Positions 43 through 16,922 of a stretch of DNA of 16,923 nucleotides are shown here, one piece after another. Numbering within the stretch: position 1 is the stretch's first letter; each line of letters opens with the position of its first letter. A program made the position numbers and the translations under genes. The stretch spans positions 1 to 16,923 of the forward strand of contig CAZPWM010000069.1 in the NCBI GenBank assembly GCA_964590575.1. The letters are read 5' to 3'. Origin of the DNA: an uncultured archaeon. Lineage in GTDB: Archaea; Asgardarchaeota; Thorarchaeia; Thorarchaeales; Thorarchaeaceae. The notes under the pieces were generated by a model. The model was given only the letters and a program-made list of their open reading frames with translations. It had not been told where the DNA came from and searched no databases.

Positions 43-159
43 ATTCTAATCCAGTTGAAATTATTAATTCGGAATATTTACGAAAGAACAGCTCAATAAT
101 GGGGGTATCTTTCTTAACCCCCTATCTTTTTTTCGAGATGAGGCACAACTAGAAGAAGA

Positions 160-182
160 TGGCGGGCCAGACGGGAATTGAA
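160..182 (-). repeat. tRNA 3'-end fragment, copy 1 (att-like)
   Basis: Minus strand reads TTCAATT-CCCGT-CTGGCCC-G-CCA (T-loop, T-stem 3' strand, acceptor 3' strand, discriminator, CCA), then TCTT. 19/23 identical to the 3' end of the tRNA-Lys at 8922-8998. Lies 3 nt past the stop codon of the 186-572 gene. Confidence 0.85.
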
Positions 183-698: not shown

Positions 699-1556
699 TT
701 ATTGGATGCTAGGTGACACTGACTGCTCAGTTTGGCGTATCAATATAATCAGTAGAAAAAGTGCAATGCCATATGTGATGATATTTTCTAGTCCTTGCAA
801 TGATATGTTAAATAGAATGGGAAGGAAATTTAGAACAGCATGAGTCACACCCACAAGGTAGAGTGATCGTGTTTTTTCATATAGTAGTCCTATGAAACAA
901 AATAGTAAGAAACCTGAAATGATTCCTATGGGTGTCAGGGTTTGAACTAATCCATGAAAAATTACAAAGACCAATGTAACAGATATGATTCCAAATAGCC
1001 TACCATATTCCTCAACAGCCCGGGTTTGCAAATAGCCTCGAAACACAATCTCTTGCCAGAAACTATTCAACACATAGAACGTCATAGAGCTGACTAATGC
1101 ACTCAAGACTGGCCATTGACTGAAATTGGGAAAAATTGGGAGCGCTTGTGTGTCGAGAAATATTCCAAATATAATAGATCCAAAAAAGAGGCTCCACCCA
1201 ATAGCCAATCCAAATATCACGAATAGAAGGGTATTGCGCCATAGATTCAAACCAATGTCAGACAAGTGAAACTCATTTTTCTCAATGCGTGTAATTAAGG
1301 CGGCAACAAGTATGAGCATTAAGAGAATATCCAATGAACTCGCAATCGCCTGACCCTCTGATGATTCAGCTACAAAGATTTGCGCATTCTGAAAAGCAAC
1401 AGAAGATGACACCCCCTGCAAGATGAAGACCTGCTGGACTACAAGTATCAAACTGAATCTACTAATGACAATTAGCACAATGATCAGTATGAGAGTAATT
1501 GCAAGTTTCCATAAAAAGCGGATTTGTCCCGTATCTGTTCTGAGTACCCCTTCCAT
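699..1556 (-). CDS. CPBP (CAAX protease/Abi, Rce1-like) intramembrane glutamic endopeptidase family protein
   Basis: Multiple hydrophobic helices. CPBP motifs QEIVFR (normally EExxxR), FVIFH and HAVLN. Confidence 0.85.
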   Translation of the reverse strand: MEGVLRTDTGQIRFLWKLAITLILIIVLIVISRFSLILVVQQVFILQGVSSSVAFQNAQIFVAESSEGQAIASSLDILLMLILVAALITRIEKNEFHLSDIGLNLWRNTLLFVIFGLAIGWSLFFGSIIFGIFLDTQALPIFPNFSQWPVLSALVSSMTFYVLNSFWQEIVFRGYLQTRAVEEYGRLFGIISVTLVFVIFHGLVQTLTPIGIISGFLLFCFIGLLYEKTRSLYLVGVTHAVLNFLPILFNISLQGLENIITYGIALFLLIILIRQTEQSVSPSIQ

Positions 1557-3090: not shown

Positions 3091-4179
3091 TCATTTAAAT
3101 TCGGGCCAAGGATAATCAGCTCTATCAAGTAATCGAATCAAGTCTGCAATAAACAAAATCAGGTATATTACAATCCTATCAACTTCATCCTTGGTAATTA
3201 TACCCATCGGTTTGTGTTTTGTTTTTTCAGTTCTTGCTTTCAGCGATTTGAAATACTCGATTAGATAATCGTGGCCTGCCTTTATTCCATGAATTTCTTC
3301 ATCACCATGACCTATTCCAATTCTTGATTTAATCCATGCTATTACCAGAGCTACTTTTCCAACTGTATCATCCTCCCTAGGTCGCACTTGCTCGTCAGGT
3401 AACATATCTTGTATTAGTAATATCTCGGTAAATCTTTGGAGTGTGTTTCGACAGGCATCTGCAGTAGCACGCCATTCTAGTTCGTTATTTGTTTCTTGCT
3501 GCCTAAGAACCATTTTTGTGATTTCATCAAATAATCTCGGATCAATGCGGGCTAACCTATTTGAAACCAAATCTTTTGTTTCGTCAAAGATATGTTGAAG
3601 AATTGGATGGAATTTAAGGGCAATTTGCTGAGTAATTAGATAATCATTAATCCTAGCACGTACTATGTGCAAGATTGAACGTAACCGATTTCTATCAATA
3701 ACGGAAGTTACTCTAATTTGGTCATCTTGTTGTTCTGGATTCTGTATAATTCGGAAAAGGGAAGGATTTTCTTTCAAATCCTCAATATATCCAATAGGAA
3801 ACGTAACATAGAACGGAACCTCGTATGGTATAAATCTAAATAACGCTCTCCAGAAAATGGAACGTTGTTCGATTGTGTCTAAAGAAGAATGTTTTTCAAT
3901 CATATCAAGAGGACCAAGGCCTATTGGCTTCCAATCATTAAGGTCATAACATCTATATTTGGGGATGAAGTGGTTTGTTGATTTTTGCCCTATAATAGAG
4001 GGATTTGGGTAGCCATTTAATTCAAAATTAATCCATTCTTCTGCATCTTTTGAGCCTATCAATTTTGAAATGTTGGAACATCGTAGAAGGAGTCTTGATA
4101 CTGAAGCCCCTTCAGTGTAAATTTCCTTTAATGTTTCCTCGATGAGGCTTAGGGCTTCGTCTATTCTATCATCTGGCAT
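3091..4179 (-). CDS. AbiTii-like N-terminal domain protein with a helical HEPN/Abi-like C-terminus (putative anti-viral)
   Basis: N-terminus VSRLLLRC..ISKLIG..DAEEWINFELNGYP...IPKYR matches the AbiTii pattern. C-terminus ADACRNTLQ...RTEKTKH (R-x5-H) is HEPN-like. Confidence 0.7.
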   Translation of the reverse strand: MPDDRIDEALSLIEETLKEIYTEGASVSRLLLRCSNISKLIGSKDAEEWINFELNGYPNPSIIGQKSTNHFIPKYRCYDLNDWKPIGLGPLDMIEKHSSLDTIEQRSIFWRALFRFIPYEVPFYVTFPIGYIEDLKENPSLFRIIQNPEQQDDQIRVTSVIDRNRLRSILHIVRARINDYLITQQIALKFHPILQHIFDETKDLVSNRLARIDPRLFDEITKMVLRQQETNNELEWRATADACRNTLQRFTEILLIQDMLPDEQVRPREDDTVGKVALVIAWIKSRIGIGHGDEEIHGIKAGHDYLIEYFKSLKARTEKTKHKPMGIITKDEVDRIVIYLILFIADLIRLLDRADYPWPEFK

Positions 4180-4295: not shown

Positions 4296-5246
4296 TTAAA
4301 AATAATCAACTAAATACAATTCAGATACTGCATCGAGTATACTTATTGGTAGAACAATGAGAAGCGGTATTGAAAAAATCACTGCCATTGTTGACAGGTG
4401 CTTCTTGAACCAGTTGCGAATAATTCCAATCATATTCACTAGTTCTGGAGGAATATTCTCCTCTTGCCATAGCATACTGATTGATTTCTCTAACAAATCC
4501 TTAATCTCTGAAAATAACTCATGATCGAATTTTCTAAGTGAAGGTTCAGGATTACCATGGGCAATCTTTCCTCTTAGTCGAACTAAGTAGGTAAGGAATT
4601 TTCTGTATCTCTGAATTTCAGATTTCATAAATTGATTTTGACAAATTTCTTCTATATTCAATGCATCATACAATGTTTGAATAAGTTGATTTGAGCCCAA
4701 ACGCCAAACATGACTGATTTCTGTAACCTTTGTTCTATCTCTTCCGTTCACTATTTCGTTATCAGTGATGTATTTCCCTATTAATCGTAAAATAGTTTCA
4801 GATTCTTTCAAACTAGATATTCGAGAATCTAGATAAGCATCAAGATATGCAGAGCTAGAAAGTGTTAGTAATGCTAGCAGTCTACGTATTTCTCTTCTCC
4901 CAAAAACTTTGGAAAGGTCTACTTCTTGATTTTGATCTGAAATAGAACTCATCAGTTTCAGAAACAATTCTAGTTCTTCGAATCCCTCGGTGGATTCGGA
5001 TTGTTTTTTCAGCTTTGGAATCTCACCTTTCTTCCATATACTAATCCATTCGTTTTGTACGAGGTTGATAGGCCAGGTCATGAAGCTCATTGCATTTACA
5101 AAATTCATTACATCTCCTATTTGTCTACCAAGTTTCTTCCCATTCTCGCTTGAAAAGAGAGCAGTATATTGGATTTCTTCCTTTGAACTATCGATAAATC
5201 TACGTATTTTACCTAATTTTTTCTCAAGAGCATTCGTCACTATCAT
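4296..5246 (-). CDS. HEPN-domain protein (putative RNase effector)
   Basis: R-x4-H motif in LVRLRGKIAHG (RGKIAH at 4557-4574), preceded by an acidic amphipathic helix (SAYLDAYLD). All-helical character. Confidence 0.65.
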   Translation of the reverse strand: MIVTNALEKKLGKIRRFIDSSKEEIQYTALFSSENGKKLGRQIGDVMNFVNAMSFMTWPINLVQNEWISIWKKGEIPKLKKQSESTEGFEELELFLKLMSSISDQNQEVDLSKVFGRREIRRLLALLTLSSSAYLDAYLDSRISSLKESETILRLIGKYITDNEIVNGRDRTKVTEISHVWRLGSNQLIQTLYDALNIEEICQNQFMKSEIQRYRKFLTYLVRLRGKIAHGNPEPSLRKFDHELFSEIKDLLEKSISMLWQEENIPPELVNMIGIIRNWFKKHLSTMAVIFSIPLLIVLPISILDAVSELYLVDYF

Positions 5247-6577: not shown

Positions 6578-6672
6578 TTTAATCACTATACTAATGTTCA
6601 ATTGACATCATAAGCTCGAAATCCTATATACACTCTGCTCGGATTGTAATCTAAAAATTAATGAAAATTAAA

Positions 6673-6691
6673 TGGCGGGCCAGGGCGGATT
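6673..6691 (-). repeat. tRNA 3'-end fragment, copy 5 (T-loop truncated)
   Basis: Minus strand reads AAT-CCGCC-CTGGCCC-G-CCA. 16/19 identical to the tRNA-Lys 3' end. Intergenic. Confidence 0.8.
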
Positions 6692-6742
6692 TTTGGGCGA
6701 CTAATTGAGAAGCCATATATGATTTGATTATTCACTGCTGTT

Positions 6743-8894: not shown

Positions 8895-8921
8895 CATGAA
8901 ATGGAGCAGATGCGAAAACAC

Positions 8922-8998
8922 GGGCCGGTGGCTCAGTCAGGTAGAGCGACAGGCTCTTAACTTGTTGGTCGCGGGTTCGAATCCCGCCCGGCCCGCCA
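8922..8998 (+). tRNA. tRNA-Lys(CTT), intronless, encoded CCA
   Basis: Full cloverleaf: acceptor GGGCCGG/CCGGCCC, D-stem GCTC/GAGC, anticodon stem ACAGG/CTTGT with loop CT-CTT-AA (anticodon 8956-8958), T-arm GCGGG-TTCGAAT-CCCGC, discriminator G, CCA. Confidence 0.97.
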
Positions 8999-9003
8999 TT
9001 GAC

Positions 9004-9010
9004 TCTTTTT
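9004..9010 (+). terminator. possible oligo-T terminator of the tRNA
   Basis: TCTTTTT begins 5 nt after the CCA. Archaeal intrinsic terminators are oligo-T tracts. Confidence 0.4.
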
Positions 9011-9063
9011 GCAGCTCCTCTTCAATCTGGCTAAGCCACTGGTCGTTCATTTTCAGATAGACT

Positions 9064-11214
9064 TCAACTAGTCCGTCCAGGAACGACACTGGATTGTTGA
9101 ACATGAATTATATTACGTGCTGCATTGATGTCAGCGTGGAAATGTTCATCACATTTTGAGCAGTAGAAGAACTCTCCTCCTTTTTTCTCGGATTGAGAGG
9201 CTACATCCACAACTCGAATCCCTCGTTCACCGCACTGATGGCAGGTCTGACTGGTGTATCTTGGGTTCACAGTCCACACACTGTATCTACAGTGGCCAAG
9301 GGACTCTCTCATGTATCTCACTGTTTCGATGATTTTTCCCCAGAGGTTCACTCCTAGAAACCAAGAGAGATTGTCCATACCTCCACGAGCTTGAAAGCTC
9401 CGAAGGTCTTCGAAGAACAACTTCTTTACTCTATGTTCTTCACAAAACCAGACAGTCCTTGAAGCAATCTGTCGGGCAATCTCTCGATCAAGACGACGAA
9501 ACTTACTCCACAGTGCACCAACATGTCTATCTCTCTTGAGAACAGGTGCTGGGTGTGACTGTCCTGACCGTTTCTTGTCCCAGTTATTCTTCTTTCTGTC
9601 CAGTTCAGAGGTTAGTCTTGAAGCATGCTTCCTGATTCGTTCTCTCTTCTCAACCAGATTTCCTACTGTGATGAGCATATCAACAAAGGAAGCATCTTTC
9701 TCAACAGACAGTGCCACAGGAGCTCGTATACCCCTATCAGCTCCAGCATGATTGTCATACTCTCGCTTCCCCATGATTAATGAGCTAACCTCACCATTAG
9801 GAGAGAGAAAAGGAATCTGGAGAGTGACTCTATTACCCCTGAGAAGGAGTCGTGGCGGAGCACTCCTGCGGGCATTCCTCAGTTGACTCACCCTTTGCTG
9901 TAAGAGGGTTATTTCTTCTGTGTCTGATTCGCTTCTTCCCTTCATCTTTGACAACTGATATGCAGAGTGTTGAAACTCAATCGTGTTCATCAGCTGATTA
10001 TACATGTCTTCGAACTTTGCTGCTCTGAATCTTAGTTGTTCTACTCTTTGACTGGCGCTAAAGTTCATTGCATCATCAGCTTTTTTCTTATCTGTAAAAC
10101 TTGCTCTTGGAAGCCAGTTCAAGAACCGAAACGTTAGTGTCCTTGAACCATATGGAGATTGCTCGTTATCCACTCCATCAATTCCAGGTGGGATCTTGAG
10201 ATGGAGGAGAATCTCGTTTTCCTTCTTCTCATCAACAGTGAACCAGTAACCTTGACTCACTGTATTCTCAGTTGATGCAGAGAAGTCCAAGCTGTAGTTC
10301 CTGAGTATTGGTACCGTGGACGGATACCCGTTCTTTTTCCAGCTTTGAACCTGACTCATAACGAGCTTTTCAACACTCTGCATCTCAGAGGAGTTCTCCT
10401 TCAATAGAGAGATTATCTTGGTCCGCTGATGTCTTCGCTGGTGAGTTTTGATGCCATGATGGTCGAGAATGTGACAATCGAGAGCAAATCGAATCTGCCG
10501 AAGAACTCCGAGAGCATAGTGGTATCCCGCACCATTGTTCCTCACAGCTTCGCACCGGTCCCTCACCTTTCTCAGTAGGAAGTTCGGGATTCTCTTCTTA
10601 TCTAGAAGAGATAGCACATTGTTGGTTGATTCACTCAGATAGGCGATTGCAGCCTTGACAAGTTGTCTTCTAGTCCAGTCTGTGAGGATGATCCTCCCAG
10701 CTTGTTCCAGGGCGTTTCTGTGGAGTCGACCATAGGTCAACTCCTTGAAGTCTTGGTTGTTCTGATAACAGATGTCTGGCTCACTCCTCAGAAGGTTGTA
10801 TGCACGACCTCGATATTCCGAGAGCTTCTTCCCAAGTTGTTCTGCATACTCTGTATTCTTGTAGACCTTCTCAAGAACAAGGTTGACAGTAGAAACATAC
10901 TGTTTGAAGGTTGACTCAAGGATACTAAGGTCGGTTTCCCGTACCTTCCTTCCTGTACTTCCAGCGATTGAGAGAATCTGTTGGGCACTACTTTTGCTCT
11001 TCTTTGAGAAGGAGGGGTCTGGTCGTCGGTTCTTTCCTTTTCGAGAGATGACTCTGTCAGAAGAATTGAGAGAGAATGACTCGACGAGGTACTTCAGACC
11101 AGTCTTCGGTGTTCCTGATGATGAGTATATAAATTTGTCATCAATTGTCTGTTGCTCTTCAGCCATAGACTGAGTCTGCTTCCGGTGATGACGCCGGATT
11201 GTTTCTTTTGTCAT
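9064..11214 (-). CDS. tnpB: large TnpB/Cas12-like RuvC nuclease (716 aa)
   Basis: RuvC-I AGADRG (D493), bridge-helix-like basic coiled segment, RuvC-II LFFEDL (E602), zinc ribbon VNPRYTSQTCHQC...CSKC, RuvC-III HADINAARNI (D695). GGTGA RBS at 11218-11222. Confidence 0.9.
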   Translation of the reverse strand: MTKETIRRHHRKQTQSMAEEQQTIDDKFIYSSSGTPKTGLKYLVESFSLNSSDRVISRKGKNRRPDPSFSKKSKSSAQQILSIAGSTGRKVRETDLSILESTFKQYVSTVNLVLEKVYKNTEYAEQLGKKLSEYRGRAYNLLRSEPDICYQNNQDFKELTYGRLHRNALEQAGRIILTDWTRRQLVKAAIAYLSESTNNVLSLLDKKRIPNFLLRKVRDRCEAVRNNGAGYHYALGVLRQIRFALDCHILDHHGIKTHQRRHQRTKIISLLKENSSEMQSVEKLVMSQVQSWKKNGYPSTVPILRNYSLDFSASTENTVSQGYWFTVDEKKENEILLHLKIPPGIDGVDNEQSPYGSRTLTFRFLNWLPRASFTDKKKADDAMNFSASQRVEQLRFRAAKFEDMYNQLMNTIEFQHSAYQLSKMKGRSESDTEEITLLQQRVSQLRNARRSAPPRLLLRGNRVTLQIPFLSPNGEVSSLIMGKREYDNHAGADRGIRAPVALSVEKDASFVDMLITVGNLVEKRERIRKHASRLTSELDRKKNNWDKKRSGQSHPAPVLKRDRHVGALWSKFRRLDREIARQIASRTVWFCEEHRVKKLFFEDLRSFQARGGMDNLSWFLGVNLWGKIIETVRYMRESLGHCRYSVWTVNPRYTSQTCHQCGERGIRVVDVASQSEKKGGEFFYCSKCDEHFHADINAARNIIHVQQSSVVPGRTS

Positions 11215-11391: not shown

Positions 11392-14300
11392 ATGTTTGTT
11401 TTAATGAAAAACGCTGAATTCCCAAAAAACCCAGGGAGGGTTCTCACCAAAGCCCTCCAGTTAGGCCTCACAGCAGTGGCATATCTAGCGAGAACAAGAG
11501 TGACAAAGACCACAAGACACCTCTACTGGGGTGGGAAGGGGCGAAAGGGAATCAGACATATCCTGAAGGAAGGTCTCTCAGAGTACCGACAGTCTGTGAG
11601 GGAGAGAAGACCCGATGCAAAATACCTGCAACGAATCGAAAACAACGTCCGACGCAGCCACAACAAGATTGTCCTGAATGCATCGGTCCGTTATGGCAAT
11701 GTGGAAGAGAAGCGGAGGAGAAGGAACGAGGATCGAAAATACATCAATATCCTTGCAGATTACTATGGAGCAAAGATTAGAAACATTGGTGCAGTGGAGT
11801 TCTCCTTTCCAGAACCCATGTTGATGGAAGCCAGCGATGGCAGTAAGAAACGAGTCTACCCAGGAAACACTCGCGTGCCAGAGTATGTGCCGACCCACAC
11901 TGCTCCTGAGCTCGACTTCATGGATATGATCAGGGGCTACGGTATCGAACTCGCAAGACAGTGTATGAGATACTCTGTTCCAATGAGAGAGGCAAAGCGA
12001 TACCTTGACAGACTCATTAATCGCCTCATGCCATACCTCGAGTATGTATACACTGAGGGAAAGAGGGGAAAGAAGGGGTTCATTCATGGAGGTGCACAAG
12101 AGCTCAGGGAGATTGTCAGAGAGATTCAGGCACTCTACGGGGGTATGAATGGTAGACCACCATCAATCACTGGAGAGGTTTCAGGATATAGGCAAGTTGA
12201 AACATCAAAAATGCCTGATGCTTTGGATGTTTCAATTCCTGACGAATTCTTTCAATCATCCTTGGTAGAGGATGATGAGTCAAGGGAGGCGGATGTTTTA
12301 GATCCAAAGGATAAAAGTGAGGATGAGTTAGACACCTTCTTCTCTGATATCATATCCAAGTGTGATGTGAACCTGCATCCAGAGTGGAAACCGCATGTGG
12401 AAAAGATCCAATCACTGATTGATGAGAGGATACTCACTCGGACTGATGCGGAGAATGTGTTACAGAAACTGCTGGAAGACAGTAGGATGATGGGTTCAGC
12501 CTTCCATGACTTCATTGCTAATTCTGAATTCTCAGTCAGACCCTTCTCACTTTTTGCTCCAATCAGGCACGGGGACCAGATGGTCACTGAAGAAACCCCC
12601 TTCCTGTTCACTTGCGAAGTGACTATAGCCAACGGAAGAGGGCGGGTCGACATCCTCGTCTTTCGGAAAAAGAACCTAGAGAAGGCTGATGAGTCGAAAG
12701 AAGACACCATATGGGAACCGTTCATTCTCATCGAAGTCAAGACCAAGTGTTTCTATCAGCTTGATTTGTACGCGACAACGACGAGGTCTAAGGACAAGAG
12801 CTGTCGAGTCATAGAGCCAGTCATAGAGAGAAGAAAATCAGACGATTCTGAGTGGGAGGAGGTTATCAACTCAACACCGGATGACTATGGGAAGGACCAA
12901 CTGAAGGCGTACGAGAAAGAGGTGCTTTCTGCATACAATAGATTCGCACGGAGCGATTCCAACCCTCCTGATAGACTAATGAAAGGAGTGCTCATCGTTG
13001 ACCTGAAAGAGAACTGGGAAACTCTCAGGACGTGCATTAGAGATTTCATTCTTGAGGCTTATCACAAATATCAGAATGATGGTGATTCAGAAAGACAGTT
13101 CTTCTTTCCCATTTTTGAGGGGAGCAGTCCAAGAATGGGGCTTGTATTATACAGCGGCTGCAATACCAGAGATGCCACTCTAGTTGAGAGAGTTCAAGAG
13201 TTCAATCCCGTTCTATATTCAAGACAACGGGATGATGACAGAGAGTTTATTCTGTATCTCACAGTATCAGGGAAAGGGTCTCCCTCCGCATCTGCAGCAG
13301 GGATTGCAGCCAGATGGCATGGACTAAGTTTCATTCATGAACGAGTGAAAGGGAAACATAGAGATGTTGTGTGGTTTGATTTATCTGGCGAATTGAAGAA
13401 TCGGACATTAAGGAAACAAAGTTTTCGCGCTGGGCTTCAGTCAAAGAGTGTCCAGAGATTTCTGAGAGAAAGAATAACCTTTGCTGATGTGTCAGAGTCC
13501 TTCTCATCTTATGCCAATGGGATGCGTGCCCTTAATGCAATGATTGAAGAGATAGATGAAAATCTCAAAAACAAGAGTAAGCCCTTTATCGTTGTTACAG
13601 GTATGGATAGAATTAGAGCGACTATTCAAAGACAGAGGTTGCCTCTGCTTGATGAGTTTTTGTCTTGGATTCTCGAAGGACTGCCTTCTCATTCAACGCT
13701 ATTATGGTTTGACAGTCCTGTACCAGTGAGTAAGACGAGTCAAAAGTATGACACCCGATGCGTGGCACCATTCTATCCAAACAGTCCATGGGTTCGTTTC
13801 GTCGATGAGGTTGTCTACAATCTTCCTATGGCTCCAAGGAGATACGGGTCCTATGTTCCTGTAGAGGATGACATCAGATGGCTAGCGATTGAGAGTATAA
13901 ATAGCATCCAGATTGATTCTGTGTTGATTCCACCTCTATACAAGTGGGGAGAGAGATTCAGACCTGATAGTAATCGTGAAGAAAATATCGACAGTCGACA
14001 GGAGTTCTACTTGAGAGGCAACTATGCTTCCATAAGGCAGGGATATCGAACACACTACAGTGAGTCTGATCAAAACGAGATATTGGAGCTAGTCCCACAT
14101 CTTAGAAGGTTCTATCAGACATATGAACGGGAGGAGAGAAATATCACTATTCAGCAGAGAAAACTCCCGACAACAATCTCTAATGCACCATCCCTTCTTT
14201 CGAGGATCGTCTTCAGACCATATCAGTATTTGACCTCTGTTGATGCTGATGACCGTATCAAGAAACTTGACCCGTTAGCGAAGGTGAATCACGCACGAGA

Positions 14301-16797
14301 ATACAGAACGACTCGCCTATTTGAAAGATCTCCAAAACAGACCACGCGACCGCCGCATATCGGTCTATTACATTTCCAAGGCCTTGATAGGTTAGCCATA
14401 GTGAGAAAGGAACTTAGTGGGATCAGGCGGACATCCAAGATCATCACTAAGCGCTATGGCGAGAACAAAGAGTGGAAAGAGTTTCTCGACTCACTTGCCA
14501 GCCTTACTGAGAGAAAAGTGATTGACGAGTATTCGGAGAACGACACGTTCAATGTTCTGCGTGAGATCCGAGTGTTTCTTGAAACTCACGACTTTAGCAA
14601 TAGATTGTGGGTCGCTTTAAAGAAACAAAGGTCTTGGATTCCAGAGGGTCTATTAGAGGACCAAAAGACAGAACTGAAGAAGCTTCTTGATAAGGACCCA
14701 GACTTGTTGTTGATATTTGGCAATCATCTATTTCTTCTTCTCCTTACATCGCTATATGAGTCCCGAACATTAGATGTGCCAACAAACTCGTTGGAGACCC
14801 TTTGGCATTATCTTCTACCCTTTCAGTTGATGGGGATTGGGTTTGTTGCGAGGTATCACTCATATCATAACACAGGAGTGTCAATTCTTCATAGATCGAA
14901 ACTCATTGATCGCATGAAAACGAGATACGAGAGTTTGAAGCAAGTCTTTGGAGAAGAGCAAGTATCTGAAGTTCTCTTTGGTCGGGTGTGTCTTGTAGAG
15001 GAGCACGATAATGAGAGTCCGCAACACATCCTTCTCGCATTCCAAACAAGACCCAATAGCCTTGAGATGAATGTGATTTATCTCAAACTTCCACACGAGA
15101 TTAGTGGATCAACATATGAAGTTCTGAGGAGTTTCTGCAAGGATAGACCTTTCTGGGGAGCTAGCGACCTAATCCTGCTCAGAGAGTTGTCGGAGAGGGT
15201 TGAACCAGAAAGAGGCATAGATATCATGATTGCAACTCAACGAGGGATTCGAGGTCTTTGGGTCCATGATGATAAGACTCAGACTTGGCAACCAATAGGG
15301 AGAGTTGACTACTACACACGAAAGCATGAAGCAGTCACACTTCTCATGTCGATGATTTTGAGAGAAGACCCAACTCTTATTCAAGTGGCGAGAGCTACTG
15401 TCAGGGAACCACCTGGTAATCTTGAAGATTCGATCAGAGTTGGACTGGGTCTTATTTCAACAGTATATCGTGATGTAGTTCATGTCAAGTGTTGTGTTCA
15501 TCTTGAAAGTGATACCCGAATGTTTAGACTCTCAATAATGGACTTGGACAGTGAAGATGAGATAGCGCATTTGATGATTTCAGACGCTGTGGATGTGCTT
15601 GAACTTCTTCGACGACCCGATTTTTCATGTGAGCCAGTAGTGATTGATGGGAATCACTATGTATGGAACAGGTTTTCTGACATCGAATTCGATGAGGAAA
15701 CAAAAATCCTACGGCCTTTTGTTGTTAGGCAGGACCCTTTTAAAACTAAATCGATACTATTTCCTCCTACAGCTGAATCATTCCATGAGATTGAGAAGAG
15801 CACTTCTCTAAAAGTCAAAATCAGTCATGATTACCATGTTTGCCCACTTAGAAATCGAAATCTTGGAGCAATAACTAAGCAATCCGATGCTACTGAGAAG
15901 ATTGTTGAATATCTAGAAGATACGGATGGTCCCCCGGGACAACCAGAGTCACTATTCAATGAGTCAATATTCAGACATGGCTCCTGTTGGAGCATATCGT
16001 TCCATCCTGATGACCAAGCCCCGAAAGAAATCAAGGAACTAGAAGAAATCAAGTTCACTGGTCCAATACTCGCCACATTTCTTGAAACCGGTGCAATCTC
16101 ATATCGTACTCAGGATGACCAGTGGGTAGTGCATGATATTCTGATTCCAGAGTCTAAAAACTTGCCAAAGGAGTTCAGAGAGTCGATATATCTAATGCGG
16201 TGGAGAAGAGAGAGAGCTGCATATCCCGGTTTATACCTTCTTGAGGGATGGAGTCCTGAAATATCGATTTTCGAGGAAAGAGTTGAGTTCAGACTTGTAT
16301 CCGAGCTCACACCCCAAAAGAAAGTTCACACGGTATTCAGACCGAGAGTTGAGATGATCGAGAGAAACCATCTGTATCAGCTCTTAAAAGAGGGTATGGA
16401 GGTAGTACTTGATCAAGCGGGGTTCTCTGATAACACTCTAATGAAGCAGCTTGTTGAAGAGGAGATTAGAAACCATCTATCACTGATAGAAGAGAGGCCC
16501 ACTACAAAACTTCAGCTGGAATCGGTTGATATCGCAACTGACAATGCTGGAGGGAAAGTAGTAGAGGCAATCTTTGTCACTGACGAGGGAGAGTATGTTT
16601 CAATTCAGGTGACTCAATGGATACATGTCTATCAAAACTGGACAGAGATGGCAGGAGGGATTGGTGCTGATGTGATAGAGGGGGAAGTTGAAAACGCCTT
16701 AGATGGTCGAGGCATTGGGATTGAATTGATTAATCGAATCATAGAAGACGTGAAAGATATACTGATGGAAAAAGGAGTAGTCATCCTCGAATCATAA
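11392..16797 (+). CDS. giant multidomain protein: PD-(D/E)XK (RecB/Cas4-like) nuclease + degenerate RecA/KaiC-like domain + unknown regions
   Basis: Uninterrupted 1801-codon ORF. Nuclease motifs in canonical order: GSAFH (368-372), E409, GRVD420, IE448VK450, Q503LKAY. ATPase-like remnants: LTVSGKGSPS (~627), VVWFDLSGE, FIVVTGMD (~732). The true start may be ATG 11404. Confidence 0.75.
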   Translation: MFVLMKNAEFPKNPGRVLTKALQLGLTAVAYLARTRVTKTTRHLYWGGKGRKGIRHILKEGLSEYRQSVRERRPDAKYLQRIENNVRRSHNKIVLNASVRYGNVEEKRRRRNEDRKYINILADYYGAKIRNIGAVEFSFPEPMLMEASDGSKKRVYPGNTRVPEYVPTHTAPELDFMDMIRGYGIELARQCMRYSVPMREAKRYLDRLINRLMPYLEYVYTEGKRGKKGFIHGGAQELREIVREIQALYGGMNGRPPSITGEVSGYRQVETSKMPDALDVSIPDEFFQSSLVEDDESREADVLDPKDKSEDELDTFFSDIISKCDVNLHPEWKPHVEKIQSLIDERILTRTDAENVLQKLLEDSRMMGSAFHDFIANSEFSVRPFSLFAPIRHGDQMVTEETPFLFTCEVTIANGRGRVDILVFRKKNLEKADESKEDTIWEPFILIEVKTKCFYQLDLYATTTRSKDKSCRVIEPVIERRKSDDSEWEEVINSTPDDYGKDQLKAYEKEVLSAYNRFARSDSNPPDRLMKGVLIVDLKENWETLRTCIRDFILEAYHKYQNDGDSERQFFFPIFEGSSPRMGLVLYSGCNTRDATLVERVQEFNPVLYSRQRDDDREFILYLTVSGKGSPSASAAGIAARWHGLSFIHERVKGKHRDVVWFDLSGELKNRTLRKQSFRAGLQSKSVQRFLRERITFADVSESFSSYANGMRALNAMIEEIDENLKNKSKPFIVVTGMDRIRATIQRQRLPLLDEFLSWILEGLPSHSTLLWFDSPVPVSKTSQKYDTRCVAPFYPNSPWVRFVDEVVYNLPMAPRRYGSYVPVEDDIRWLAIESINSIQIDSVLIPPLYKWGERFRPDSNREENIDSRQEFYLRGNYASIRQGYRTHYSESDQNEILELVPHLRRFYQTYEREERNITIQQRKLPTTISNAPSLLSRIVFRPYQYLTSVDADDRIKKLDPLAKVNHAREYRTTRLFERSPKQTTRPPHIGLLHFQGLDRLAIVRKELSGIRRTSKIITKRYGENKEWKEFLDSLASLTERKVIDEYSENDTFNVLREIRVFLETHDFSNRLWVALKKQRSWIPEGLLEDQKTELKKLLDKDPDLLLIFGNHLFLLLLTSLYESRTLDVPTNSLETLWHYLLPFQLMGIGFVARYHSYHNTGVSILHRSKLIDRMKTRYESLKQVFGEEQVSEVLFGRVCLVEEHDNESPQHILLAFQTRPNSLEMNVIYLKLPHEISGSTYEVLRSFCKDRPFWGASDLILLRELSERVEPERGIDIMIATQRGIRGLWVHDDKTQTWQPIGRVDYYTRKHEAVTLLMSMILREDPTLIQVARATVREPPGNLEDSIRVGLGLISTVYRDVVHVKCCVHLESDTRMFRLSIMDLDSEDEIAHLMISDAVDVLELLRRPDFSCEPVVIDGNHYVWNRFSDIEFDEETKILRPFVVRQDPFKTKSILFPPTAESFHEIEKSTSLKVKISHDYHVCPLRNRNLGAITKQSDATEKIVEYLEDTDGPPGQPESLFNESIFRHGSCWSISFHPDDQAPKEIKELEEIKFTGPILATFLETGAISYRTQDDQWVVHDILIPESKNLPKEFRESIYLMRWRRERAAYPGLYLLEGWSPEISIFEERVEFRLVSELTPQKKVHTVFRPRVEMIERNHLYQLLKEGMEVVLDQAGFSDNTLMKQLVEEEIRNHLSLIEERPTTKLQLESVDIATDNAGGKVVEAIFVTDEGEYVSIQVTQWIHVYQNWTEMAGGIGADVIEGEVENALDGRGIGIELINRIIEDVKDILMEKGVVILES

Positions 16798-16865
16798 TGA
16801 ACCGCATATCCATGATATCGATTATACGTGTCTTCAGTTCATAGGTGATTTTAATGAAGACCCAG

Positions 16866-16922
16866 CTATTGCTTCCTTTTTATGTCGTATTCTTTTAGAA
16901 CAAGCACTCTATACAAGGAGTG
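16866..16922 (-). CDS. possible 3' end of a convergent gene (HSLYRVLVLKEYDIKRKQ*)
   Basis: Minus-strand frame is open from the window edge to TAG at 16866-16868. Too short to assign. Confidence 0.3.
   Translation of the reverse strand, partial: HSLYRVLVLKEYDIKRKQ

What the first reader, a model, noticed from the sequence alone, without database searches (positions are those of the whole stretch)
8976..9120. Possible TnpB guide RNA that reads into the antisense tRNA 3' end (an att-site-targeting guide)
Seen: the RuvC gene stops 65 nt from the tRNA CCA. On its own (-) strand the downstream sequence contains a small hairpin (TGGC-TTA-GCCA) and ends ...GAGTCAA immediately before TGGCGGGCCGGGCGGGATTCGAA, the exact antisense of the tRNA 3' end. 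Established: TnpB omega/reRNAs come from the gene 3' end and right end, the guide is the flank just outside the element, and IS608/ISDra2 right ends finish in TCAA. Inference (speculative; a 4-mer can occur by chance): the guide would be a tRNA 3' end, the sequence that integrating elements carry in attP and that the five local repeats resemble (17-20/23 for copies 1, 2 and 4). The nuclease could therefore police or exploit tRNA att sites.
Basis: partly seen in the sequence, partly recalled or inferred. Interest (0 to 1): 0.7.

Follow-up and report, generated by a model that had tools for sequence, protein, structure and literature searches.

The report
TnpB guide copies tRNA-Lys 5' end

Summary
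The sequence facts are correct, but the proposed guide is in the wrong place.

- **Scaffold.** The 716-aa gene (9064-11214, minus strand) is a TnpB/Cas12f-fold protein with the putative RuvC D-E-D triad and zinc finger intact. Its 3' end carries a conserved, covarying omega-RNA-like scaffold.
- **Boundary.** The scaffold ends at ...AAAATGAACG (G9044). That is 45 nt before the tRNA and not at TCAA. Two filled-versus-empty site comparisons place the element/host junction at this point.
- **Guide.** The guide is therefore about 9043-9024. It resembles tRNA-Lys(CTT) nt 3-21 in the sense orientation.
- **tRNA link.** Nine loci in this group of Thorarchaeota repeat the layout scaffold, tRNA-like guide, variable spacer (22-104 nt), inverted complete tRNA-Lys. 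Four of them share an identical 19-nt guide while their spacers are unrelated.
- **Insertion site.** In one relative the other end of the element abuts a tRNA-Lys promoter plus nt 1-10. The roughly 8-kb element (an 1801-aa unknown protein plus the TnpB-like gene) therefore sits inside a tRNA-Lys gene copy.
- **Targeting.** The window guide matches a relative's tRNA-Lys allele at 16 of 16 nt. It mismatches the neighbouring resident tRNA at 3 of 16 nt.

This is a new variant of the TnpB/omega-RNA kind. No RNA 3' end, cleavage or TAM was shown.

The parts
9064..11214 (-). TnpB/Cas12f-fold gene, 716 aa (P0001). Putative RuvC residues D493, E602 and D695, and a CxxC...CxxC zinc finger.
   Evidence: Pfam Cas12f1-like_TNB E 2.3e-14. 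NCBIfam guided_TnpB 59.7 bits, below its cut-off of 100. PADLOC Cas12u3/Cas12f. AF2 model pLDDT 78.2; Foldseek top hit AsCas12f 8j3r_A E 1.7e-12, TnpB 8h1j_A E 1.3e-6. Catalytic and Cys columns invariant in 21 of 21 full-length relatives.
9044..9092 (-). 3' part of an omega-RNA-like scaffold overlapping the last codons and the stop. Helix 1 is 9092-9077, the helix 2 arms are 9074-9071 and 9062-9059, and the terminal motif AAAATGAACG is 9053-9044. The 5' limit of the RNA is unknown.
   Evidence: 30-locus alignment A1. RNAalifold helix with UA:16/CG:14 and GC:24/CG:5 exchanges. 90.3% of cells paired against 27-46% for slid controls, 9 of 14 pairs with changes on both sides, 0 of 500 shuffles reach the covariation score.
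9024..9043 (-). Predicted guide, about 19-20 nt (ACCAGTGGCTTAGCCAGAT + T). It is a sense copy of tRNA-Lys(CTT) nt 3-21, of the allele type GGGCCAG...
   Evidence: Information content falls to about 0 bits from flank position +3 across 57 distinct flanks. The element/host junction was mapped here in two filled/empty comparisons. The 19-nt block is identical in L001, L052, L053 and L054 while the spacers differ. The 8 distinct tRNA-linked flanks compared have 12-16 of 18 identity to tRNA-Lys nt 4-21; the 48 other distinct flanks have 1-10 of 18.
8999..9023 (-). Non-conserved spacer between the guide and the tRNA. On the plus strand it carries a T5 run (9006-9010) directly after the tRNA.
   Evidence: Not alignable among the 9 tRNA-linked loci; length 22-104 nt by my reading of the sequences. 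Reading the T5 run as the tRNA terminator is inference from recalled archaeal biology.
8922..8998 (+). Complete resident tRNA-Lys(CTT), convergent with the TnpB-like gene. Its nt 4-19 differ from the guide at 3 of 16 positions.
   Evidence: ARAGORN. Rfam RF00005 71.2 bits. Mismatches read.
11392..16797 (+). 1801-aa partner gene, divergently oriented. Family found only in Thorarchaeota, no recognised domain. A conserved motif ...GRGRVDIL...W.P..(I/L)E(V/I)K(T/S)K resembles PD-(D/E)xK.
   Evidence: No Pfam, PDB, PADLOC or Atlas hit. 23 relatives, all unnamed or from Thorarchaeota. Paralogues sit beside TnpB-like paralogues. It lies inside the 8.2-kb insertion in G015:C49. The nuclease reading rests only on the motif and on recall.
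16838..16866 (+). Tentative left-end region of the element. TTCATAGGTGATT (16838-16850) resembles the second-type tRNA-Lys promoter seen just outside the left end in G001. The contig ends at 16923.
   Evidence: Comparison by eye of the sequences printed and aligned for G001. Weak.
6664..6695 (-). Nearest of four tRNA-Lys 3'-end-like fragments (allele CTGGCCCGCCA). The others are at 2461-2484, about 1626-1646 and 159-182. All are sense on the minus strand, so they are co-oriented with the guide.
   Evidence: Locus L054 has the same arrangement about 45 nt beyond its tRNA promoter.

Best explanation
The 3' end of the TnpB-like gene encodes an omega-RNA/reRNA-type scaffold that ends at G9044. The next 19-20 nt (9043-9024) are its guide.

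This guide is the start (nt 3-21) of a tRNA-Lys(CTT) gene copy into which the element inserted. The element is about 8 kb and carries the 1801-aa protein plus the TnpB-like gene.

By the established TnpB logic, the RNP would recognise uninterrupted tRNA-Lys genes of the matching allele next to a GG-ending 5' motif and cut them. That would favour retention or homing of the element. The complete tRNA-Lys gene next door (8922-8998) differs from the guide at 3 of the first 16 positions and would be spared. The antisense tRNA 3' end is not the guide; at most it is read-through sequence.

Shown here: protein family, scaffold covariation, the boundary, the tRNA-like guide and its recurrence.

Inferred: that the RNA is made and bound, that cleavage occurs, the TAM, and homing.
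For: 1. **Family.** TNB domain, TnpB/Cas12f profiles and Cas12f/TnpB fold. D493, E602, D695 and four Cys are invariant in 21 of 21 relatives.
2. **Scaffold.** In 30 loci with 43-100% protein identity the nucleotide sequence is conserved past the stop codon. It forms three helices with 9 of 14 pairs showing changes on both sides, and 90.3% of cells paired against 27-46% in slid controls.
3. **Boundary from conservation.** Information content is 0.6 bits at +1 and 1.05 bits at +2, then about 0 from +3, across 57 distinct flanks.
4. **Boundary from empty sites.** For G015:C49, homology to the empty sites G024:C109, G008:C377 and G023:C36 starts at flank nt 2. These contigs carry no TnpB match. 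For G000:C193, homology to four empty sites starts at flank nt 1.
5. **tRNA-like guide.** The 8 distinct tRNA-linked flanks compared have 12-16 of 18 identity to tRNA-Lys nt 4-21, against 1-10 of 18 for the 48 others; the ninth locus, L090, was found later. Four loci with 69-76% protein identity share an identical 19 nt followed by unrelated spacers.
6. **Left end.** In G001:C3 the left end abuts a tRNA-Lys promoter, leader and GGGCTGGTGG, while the right end abuts CTGGTGGCTCAGCAGG. The same promoter type drives complete tRNA-Lys genes in G010, G009 and G003.
7. **Allele match.** The guide's 16 nt (+2 to +17) equal tRNA-Lys nt 4-19 in G024:C221, and differ by 1 from the allele in 7 of 8 tRNA-Lys genes without a detected element.
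8. **Related strain.** A 243-nt contig from a metatranscriptome run, 93% alike, spans 8906-9148. It has no listed difference in 9016-9055 and four in 9003-9015.
Against: - No RNA ends or strand are known. The only RNA-library evidence is one contig, which may be DNA carry-over.
- No perfect or near-perfect second target exists in the window's own genome: best 3 mismatches in 20, inside a coding region. The same holds for G001 and G016.
- The element has no TnpA-type transposase.
- In G015:C49 the element is flanked by a 68-nt direct duplication of the target, and in G001 by about 7-8 nt. Canonical IS200/IS605 elements do not do this.
- The rest of the interrupted tRNA (nt 22-76) is missing in all 9 loci, and a complete tRNA lies inverted beside it. 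I could not explain this arrangement.
- tRNA-linked copies fall in two protein subclades, so either a single ancient insertion or repeated insertion is possible.
- The TAM rests on 7 empty sites at two targets.
- Single-sequence folding is unremarkable.
Confidence: 0.7

Rival explanations
1. The scaffold ends at TCAA (9002-8999) and the guide is the antisense tRNA 3' end (8998-8976). The nuclease would then police or exploit tRNA att sites.
For: The antisense tRNA end does follow GAGTCAA. tRNA-3'-end-like repeats are present in the window. A tRNA-Lys follows the gene in 9 loci.
Against: - Conservation and covariation stop at G9044.
- Empty-site comparisons put the junction there.
- TCAA precedes the tRNA in only 2 of 9 loci.
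- The spacer length is 22-104 nt and its sequence is unrelated between loci.
- TCAA occurs within 120 nt in 41 of 57 flanks.
Confidence: 0.03
2. An immobilised, repurposed TnpB, like the nuclease-dead TnpB-derived repressors or other fixed-guide systems. A fixed guide would bind the tRNA-Lys gene or promoter region to regulate it or a neighbouring gene, without homing.
For: - The guide is conserved across species while the adjacent spacer is not.
- tRNA-Lys, TnpB-like gene and giant gene are syntenic in G000 and G001 at 49% and 55% protein identity.
- Exapted TnpBs with conserved partners are described in Altae-Tran et al. 2023 (PMC10691335, passages read).
Against: - All three putative RuvC residues and the zinc finger are invariant, unlike the inactivated exapted groups described.
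- Other family members have 48 other distinct flanks, and insertions are mapped against empty sites, so the family is or recently was mobile.
- The guide has 3-8 mismatches in 16 to the adjacent tRNA.
Confidence: 0.12
3. The 19 nt are a passive relic of the insertion site with no function in trans. Their similarity across loci would reflect common descent of one old insertion, and the similarity to the tRNA would reflect slow decay.
For: - The element does sit in tRNA-Lys-derived DNA.
- The differences between guide and tRNA are mostly transitions, as in ordinary divergence.
- In canonical TnpB systems the guide is simply whatever flanks the right end.
Against: - In loci with 69-76% protein identity the 19 nt are identical, while the sequence immediately after is unalignable.
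- The related-strain contig has four differences in the 17 spacer positions 8999-9015 and none in the 40 positions 9016-9055.
- This sharp contrast over exactly one guide length argues for constraint.
Confidence: 0.12
4. The segment 9043-8999 is part of the tRNA-Lys transcription unit: a 3' trailer that pairs with the tRNA 5' region for processing. It would be conserved for that reason.
For: On the plus strand, 9024-9043 is complementary to tRNA nt 3-22 at most positions if G-U pairs are allowed in the window (my reading).
Against: - tRNA-Lys genes without the element show no such trailer within 170 nt in 7 of 7 empty loci that have enough downstream sequence.
- In L039 the differences fall in the direction that does not pair.
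- The block directly abuts the element end in every case.
Confidence: 0.03

Closest known systems
IS200/IS605-family TnpB with omega RNA/reRNA (ISDra2, IS608 type; OMEGA systems)
   Same: - RuvC plus zinc-finger nuclease fold.
- An RNA scaffold that overlaps the 3' end of the gene and the element's right end.
- The guide is about 16-20 nt of flank immediately outside the right end. The rule is as stated in PMC13565253 (passages read); shown here.
   Different: - The protein is 716 aa with a roughly 480-aa N-terminal region, against about 400 aa.
- No Y1 or serine TnpA was found. The partner is an 1801-aa protein of no known family.
- The right end finishes in ...ACAATGAACG(G), not TCAA.
- Target duplications of about 7-8 and 68 nt were seen at two sites.
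- In one lineage the guide is a conserved tRNA-Lys 5' copy.
aCas1-associated TnpB groups of Asgard archaea (Cas1H-Asgard-1/-2; Altae-Tran et al. 2023, PMC10691335, passages read)
   Same: - Asgard host.
- TnpB with a large conserved neighbour, and loci flanked by repeats.
- A hypervariable guide-like region after a conserved T. Here position +2 is T in 43 of 57 flanks.
   Different: - No Cas1 domain was detected in the 1801-aa neighbour.
- The GTTCACTCA motif they report downstream of the variable region is absent: GTTCACT in 0 of 57 flanks.
- Their supplementary figures and files could not be opened, so identity with one of their groups cannot be excluded.
Type V-K CRISPR-associated transposons with a dedicated homing guide for tRNA genes (listed; titles and abstract starts only)
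   Same: A Cas12-family protein, a fixed guide that matches a tRNA gene, and an element that resides beside that tRNA.
   Different: - The nuclease residues are intact here, whereas Cas12k is inactive (recalled).
- No TnsB, TnsC or TniQ.
- The distance from guide to tRNA is variable.
- The guide copy is inverted relative to the adjacent complete tRNA.
Tyrosine-integrase elements that integrate at tRNA 3' ends
   Same: tRNA-3'-end fragments are scattered in the window, separating defence-like cassettes.
   Different: - No integrase was detected among the window ORFs of 80 aa or more that were scanned.
- The sequence abutting the TnpB element is the tRNA 5' part, not the 3' att core.

Membership tests
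TnpB / OMEGA (IS200/IS605-type RNA-guided nuclease) | RuvC-like domain with a D-E-D triad, plus a zinc-finger (TNB) domain | tested here: met
   Pfam PF07282 E 2.3e-14. Foldseek hits to Cas12f and TnpB. D493, E602, D695 and 4 Cys invariant in 21 of 21. I assigned the triad from motif position; one search aligns ADINAARNI with the Cas12f motif.
TnpB / OMEGA (IS200/IS605-type RNA-guided nuclease) | Whole-protein score above the curated family threshold | tested here: not met
   NCBIfam guided_TnpB scores 59.7 bits against a cut-off of 100. Only residues 487-703 match. Pfam OrfB_IS605 scores 16.9 against 30.5. The N-terminal 480 residues are family-specific.
TnpB / OMEGA (IS200/IS605-type RNA-guided nuclease) | Conserved structured RNA scaffold overlapping the gene's 3' end and the right end | tested here: met
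   covariation in 3 helices, 0 of 500 shuffles reach the observed score.
TnpB / OMEGA (IS200/IS605-type RNA-guided nuclease) | Guide is the host flank directly outside the right end | tested here: met
   Two filled/empty comparisons. 57 distinct flanks.
TnpB / OMEGA (IS200/IS605-type RNA-guided nuclease) | Associated Y1 (TnpA) or serine recombinase; no target duplication | tested here: not met
   No such domain in the window ORFs scanned. The 8.2-kb insertion in G015:C49 holds only the giant gene and the TnpB-like gene, and is flanked by a 68-nt duplication.
TnpB / OMEGA (IS200/IS605-type RNA-guided nuclease) | TAM 5' of the target, identical to the sequence 5' of the left end | tested here: inconclusive
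   Six of 7 empty sites have AGG and one has AGA immediately 5' of the target. The tRNA target is preceded by ...GG. Only two targets are available, and the left ends carry partial target copies.
TnpB / OMEGA (IS200/IS605-type RNA-guided nuclease) | RNA is expressed, processed and bound; RNA-guided DNA cleavage | not testable with these tools
   Only one contig from an RNA library covers the region.
aCas1-associated Asgard TnpB (Altae-Tran 2023) | Adjacent Cas1 homologue | tested here: not met
   No Cas1 family at E up to 1 in any of 16 members of the giant-protein family. No PDB sequence hit. A very remote Cas1 domain cannot be excluded: the model has low confidence and the C-terminal half was not modelled.
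aCas1-associated Asgard TnpB (Altae-Tran 2023) | Hypervariable region after a conserved T, followed by a GTTCACTCA motif | tested here: inconclusive
   T at +2 in 43 of 57 flanks, but GTTCACT in 0 of 57 within 120 nt.
Nuclease-dead exapted TnpB (TldR-like) | Loss of RuvC catalytic residues or a C-terminal truncation | tested here: not met
   Triad and zinc finger intact in 21 of 21.

The most novel reading that the evidence does not exclude
A natural 'cleave-and-rescue' arrangement. An RNA-guided nuclease element is aimed at the 5' part of the host's tRNA-Lys(CTT) gene. It interrupts one tRNA-Lys copy and always travels, or is co-selected, with an adjacent complete tRNA-Lys whose 5' part and compensating 3' strand have changed so that the guide no longer matches.

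The observations behind this reading:
- None of the 9 element-bearing loci carries the common allele CCAGTGGCTAAGCCAG at tRNA nt 4-19.
- Seven of the 8 tRNA-Lys genes without a detected element carry exactly that allele.
- The guides of the window's subclade are 0-2 mismatches from the alleles of the empty loci, but 3-4 from their own neighbour.

This would be an arms race between a selfish guide and an essential tRNA gene. Relatedness among the genomes was not controlled, so the contrast could be phylogenetic.
Probability: 0.15. Interest if true: 0.9.

Novelty: new variant of a known kind. Interest (0 to 1): 0.62.

Why it matters
- **A fixed, conserved guide in a TnpB family that still looks active and mobile.** In known TnpB systems the guide is whatever flanks the element. 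Here one lineage keeps a guide copied from an essential tRNA gene, and the element sits inside a copy of that gene beside an intact, mismatched copy.
- **A directly testable case of an RNA-guided nuclease aimed at a host tRNA gene.** Possible consequences are homing, addiction, and faster evolution of the tRNA.
- **A new gene pair.** A 716-aa TnpB-like protein is paired with a 1700-1900-aa protein of no known family. The pair was seen only in Thorarchaeota here, and it inserts as an 8-kb unit without a recognisable transposase.
- **A practical point for annotation.** In this family the guide boundary (...ACAATGAACG | guide) can now be read directly from sequence.

Tried and rejected
- **Second targets of the guides.** The window's own genome has no match with 2 or fewer mismatches in 20. 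The 3-mismatch hit at C141:5587 lies in the N-terminal coding region of another, distant TnpB-like ORF and is taken as chance. G001 and G016 have nothing closer than 3 mismatches for their guides. An exact 16-nt scan of viral contigs gave 3 hits, none in a tRNA.
- **Trailer-pairing idea.** I considered plus-strand complementarity to the tRNA 5' part with G-U pairs. It fits the window and L052/L053 but not L039, and empty loci lack the block.
- **Terminal inverted repeats.** Only short, weak resemblance was found between the outward-reading ends, plus one 14-nt inverted match in G000:C123. Left open.
- **Left-end copy of the guide in the window.** None can be seen; the contig ends 126 nt after the giant gene's stop codon.
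- **Direct repeat of the flank in G015:C189.** Only a weak, gapped alignment. I do not count it as a second case of duplication.
- **Synteny around tRNA-Lys between genomes.** None beyond the tRNA and its promoter.
- **Identity of the giant protein.** No Pfam, NCBIfam, PADLOC, PDB sequence or profile hit and no ESM Atlas hit. The AF2 model of residues 60-640 from a 7-sequence alignment has pLDDT 57.8, and Foldseek gave nothing at E up to 0.001.
- **Single-sequence fold of 9024-9150.** z = -0.59.
- **RNA evidence.** Run X24 gave one contig. Contigs cannot show ends or strand, so this is not used as proof of transcription. The DNA runs X2, X3 and X5 were laid as well and add nothing to the question.
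- **Literature.**
  - TnpB + Asgard: 14 papers hold both terms.
  - TnpB / omega RNA / tRNA gene: 75 papers hold at least two of the terms.
  - Cas1 homologs + Asgard archaea: 13 papers.
  - TnpB + Thorarchaeota: 0 papers.
  - TnpB / guide / tRNA genes / homing: 12 papers.
  - None of the listings or passages I read describes a TnpB guide derived from a tRNA 5' end.
  - Read as passages only: PMC10691335, PMC8730458, PMC13565253.
  - Makarova et al. 2020 (PMC7307682) is not held.
  - Supplements are closed; the SI of PMC10691335 (Fig. S4, additional files) may show whether this family is one of their Asgard groups.

Full report
**1. What is in the window**

ARAGORN and Rfam place one tRNA, tRNA-Lys(CTT), at 8922-8998 on the plus strand. 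A 716-aa ORF on the minus strand (9064-11214) ends 65 nt from the tRNA CCA. These are the small TGGC-TTA-GCCA hairpin, GAGTCAA at 9005-8999, and the exact antisense tRNA 3' end at 8998-8976. The window is a whole contig (C69) of a 3.4-Mb genome in 194 contigs. Names attached to homologous proteins and contigs place it among Thorarchaeota, which are Asgard archaea. G+C rises from about 0.35-0.40 left of the tRNA to about 0.43-0.47 right of it.

**2. The protein**

- The C-terminal third (about 487-703) matches the Cas12f1-like TNB domain (E 2.3e-14). It matches TnpB and Cas12f profiles below their curated whole-protein cut-offs.
- An AlphaFold model built from 22 relatives (pLDDT 78.2) matches Cas12f, Cas12g, Cas12k, Fanzor2 and TnpB structures. 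The top hit is 8j3r_A at E 1.7e-12; TnpB 8h1j_A scores E 1.3e-6.
- The residues I assign to the RuvC triad (D493 in GADRG, E602 in FFEDL, D695 in HADINAARN) and the four zinc-finger cysteines are invariant in 21 of 21 full-length family members. The protein looks like an active nuclease.
- The family is abundant but narrow. Using this query, 9 of 24 other genomes of the genus have matches at E <= 1e-20, and 0 of 16 genomes outside the genus do. All names that sources give to the listed database relatives are Thorarchaeota or Promethearchaeota.

**3. The scaffold and where it ends**

The window's genome holds five further paralogues (43-70% identity) and one distant relative. I aligned the last 190 nt plus 25 nt of flank from 30 loci of the genus.

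- Nucleotide conservation continues past the stop codon and ends abruptly at ...ACAATGAACG.
- RNAalifold finds a hairpin (CCAG...CTGG) with UA/CG and GC/CG exchanges.
- A three-helix structure that I specified is paired in 90.3% of cells, against 27-46% when the partners are slid. Nine of 14 pairs show changes on both sides, and 0 of 500 shuffles reach the covariation score.
- In the window, helix 1 is 9092-9077, the helix 2 arms are 9074-9071 and 9062-9059, and the terminal motif ends at G9044.
- Across 57 distinct flanks, position +1 is mostly G or A and +2 is T or C in 55 of 57. From +3 the information content is about zero.

**4. The boundary is the element/host junction**

- The flank of the copy in G015:C49 is the 3' end of a conserved host gene. 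Three genomes carry the uninterrupted gene and have no TnpB match on those contigs. Their homology starts at flank nt 2.
- In the filled site, the first 68 nt of the flank are repeated (79% identical by BLAST) 8.2 kb upstream. The repeat sits just outside the stop codon of a 1925-aa gene, and the left copy keeps the host reading frame open.
- The window genome's own paralogue on C193 gives a second case. Four empty sites align from flank nt 1.
- Immediately 5' of the target, the seven empty sites read AGG (six) or AGA (one).
- The rule that the guide is the flank outside the right end, established for TnpB (PMC13565253, passages), therefore applies here. The guide of the window copy is about 9043-9024.

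**5. The tRNA link is real but differs from the proposal**

In the window the flank is ACCAGTGGCTTAGCCAGAT. This resembles tRNA-Lys nt 3-21 in the sense orientation on the TnpB strand. It is therefore inverted relative to the neighbouring tRNA.

Nine loci share the layout scaffold, tRNA-like block, spacer, antisense complete tRNA-Lys(CTT), then the same tRNA promoter. They are the window, G001:C3, G016:C227, G012:C58, two GTDB contigs and three metagenome contigs.

- The 8 distinct tRNA-linked flanks (the ninth locus, L090, was found afterwards) have 12-16 of 18 identities to tRNA-Lys nt 4-21, taking the best of six alleles. The other 48 distinct flanks have 1-10.
- Four loci with proteins 69-76% identical to the window's share an identical 19 nt, and their sequences become unalignable directly afterwards. 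Spacers are 22-104 nt by my count from the printed sequences.
- TCAA precedes the tRNA only in the window and its closest relative.
- A related strain's contig from an RNA library has four differences in the spacer and none in the guide or scaffold end.

**6. Where the tRNA-like guide comes from**

- In G001:C3 the DNA just outside the left end, 14-70 nt past the giant gene's stop, reads on the TnpB strand as a tRNA-Lys-type promoter, a leader and GGGCTGGTGG. The right end abuts CTGGTGGCTCAGCAGG.
- The same promoter type (ACACCGCAATCTCTATAAAC) drives complete tRNA-Lys(CTT) genes in three other genomes.
- A copy of that promoter followed by GGGCCAGTGGCT and then unrelated DNA lies on contig C8 of the window's genome.
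- The element therefore sits inside the 5' end of a tRNA-Lys gene copy, with about 7-8 nt duplicated.
- The window's left end cannot be read, because the contig ends 126 nt after the giant gene. Only a weak promoter-like remnant is visible.
- The four tRNA-3'-end-like repeats left of the tRNA carry the acceptor allele CTGGCCC, which pairs with GGGCCAG. That matches the guide and not the resident tRNA (GGGCCGG). They are co-oriented with the guide, and locus L054 shows the same layout.
- I could not explain why nt 22-76 of the interrupted copy are missing in all nine loci, or why a complete tRNA-Lys always lies inverted beside it. Empty tRNA-Lys loci show no inverted 5' fragment.

**7. Guide against tRNA alleles**

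- Over 16 nt (guide +2 to +17 against tRNA nt 4-19), each guide differs from its own neighbour tRNA at 3, 3, 3, 3, 4, 4, 5, 5 and 8 positions.
- The window guide equals the allele in G024:C221 at 16 of 16, and differs by one from the allele CCAGTGGCTAAGCCAG.
- Seven of 8 tRNA-Lys genes without a detected element carry that allele. One of the eight (L102) has too little downstream sequence to be called empty.
- None of the 9 element-bearing loci carries it. Their changes lie in the acceptor and D stems, with compensating changes on the partner strand.
- This fits a nuclease that would cut naive alleles and spare the resident one. The genomes are related, and I had no species tree, so the contrast may be phylogenetic.
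- No near-perfect target exists within the element-bearing genomes themselves.

**8. The partner gene**

- The 1801-aa gene (11392-16797) is conserved with the TnpB-like gene in G001, at 55% and 49% identity.
- Its paralogues (about 25% identity) sit divergently beside TnpB-like paralogues on C6 and C123. Deletion remnants lie on C25 and C49, and another paralogue lies beside a more distant TnpB-like ORF on C141.
- It lies inside the mapped 8.2-kb insertion.
- It matches nothing in Pfam, NCBIfam, PADLOC, PDB or the ESM Atlas. A model of residues 60-640 was too uncertain to search with.
- A motif conserved across paralogues (E...GxG(R/K)(V/I)D(I/L)...W.P...(I/L)E(V/I)K(T/S)(K/R)) looks like a PD-(D/E)xK nuclease core. 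That reading is mine, from recall, and untested.

**9. Comparison with what is known**

- The system works like a TnpB/omega-RNA element in its nuclease fold, its scaffold at the gene's 3' end and its guide from the right flank.
- It fails the membership features of a canonical IS200/IS605 element. It has no TnpA, target duplications are present, and it scores below the curated whole-protein thresholds.
- Altae-Tran et al. 2023 describe TnpBs in Asgard archaea that are linked to large Cas1 homologues, flanked by repeats, and followed by a hypervariable region after a conserved T (PMC10691335, passages). The conserved T fits. Their downstream GTTCACTCA motif is absent (0 of 57 flanks) and no Cas1 domain was detected.
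- Type V-K CRISPR transposons that home to tRNA genes with a dedicated short guide are the closest functional analogy (listings).
- My searches found no paper describing a TnpB guide derived from a tRNA 5' end.

**10. Verdict**

It is wrong on the boundary, on the guide and on the att-site idea.

The best reading is a large Thorarchaeota TnpB-like element whose guide is a conserved copy of the tRNA-Lys 5' end, inserted in a tRNA-Lys gene copy next to an intact, mismatched tRNA-Lys. Expression, processing, TAM and cleavage remain to be shown.

Noticed in passing
window 159-182, ~1626-1646, 2461-2484, 6664-6695: There are four tRNA-Lys 3'-end-like fragments (allele CTGGCCCGCCA), all sense on the minus strand and each in an intergenic gap. 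They divide the left 8.9 kb into cassettes. The cassettes hold an AbiTii-like gene (3091-4179), a HEPN-like gene (4296-5246), a methyltransferase (1707-2453, 81% identical to a gene about 5 kb from the tRNA in G001) and a CAAX-protease-like gene (699-1556). No integrase was detected among the ORFs scanned.
   Followed up: partly
G000 contig C8, about 1030-1110, minus strand: A second-type tRNA-Lys promoter and leader are followed by only GGGCCAGTGGCT and then unrelated DNA. This looks like another tRNA-Lys copy interrupted after nt 12 by something that is not the giant/TnpB pair.
   Followed up: partly
G000 contig C141, 5513-6428: A more distant TnpB-like ORF starts about 290 nt from a paralogue of the giant protein, in divergent orientation. 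The giant-protein family may therefore pair with more than one TnpB lineage.
   Followed up: no
L016, L038, L052, L053, L094, L095 and other tRNA-Lys loci: tRNA-Lys(CTT) genes of this genus carry one or two introns, including one in the T-arm region. ARAGORN without intron mode misses them: 0 tRNAs were reported in 13 loci, although L038 and L039 contain one.
   Followed up: partly
L043 (about 70 nt after the boundary); L072 and L059 (about 115 nt after): Other family members lie close to other tRNA sequences. One is near a sense tRNA-Leu-like 3' fragment and one near a tRNA-Gly(CCC) gene. This hints at a wider tendency to sit near tRNAs.
   Followed up: no
G000 contigs C25 (29308-31204) and C49 (5500-7033): These are deletion derivatives in which the C-terminal end of a giant-protein paralogue abuts a 5'-truncated TnpB-like gene. 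They look like decaying copies of the two-gene unit.
   Followed up: no
window 9955-9975 and 10368-10388: A 21-nt inverted repeat, 95% complementary, lies inside the TnpB-like coding region with 392 nt between the arms (pair I8).
   Followed up: no
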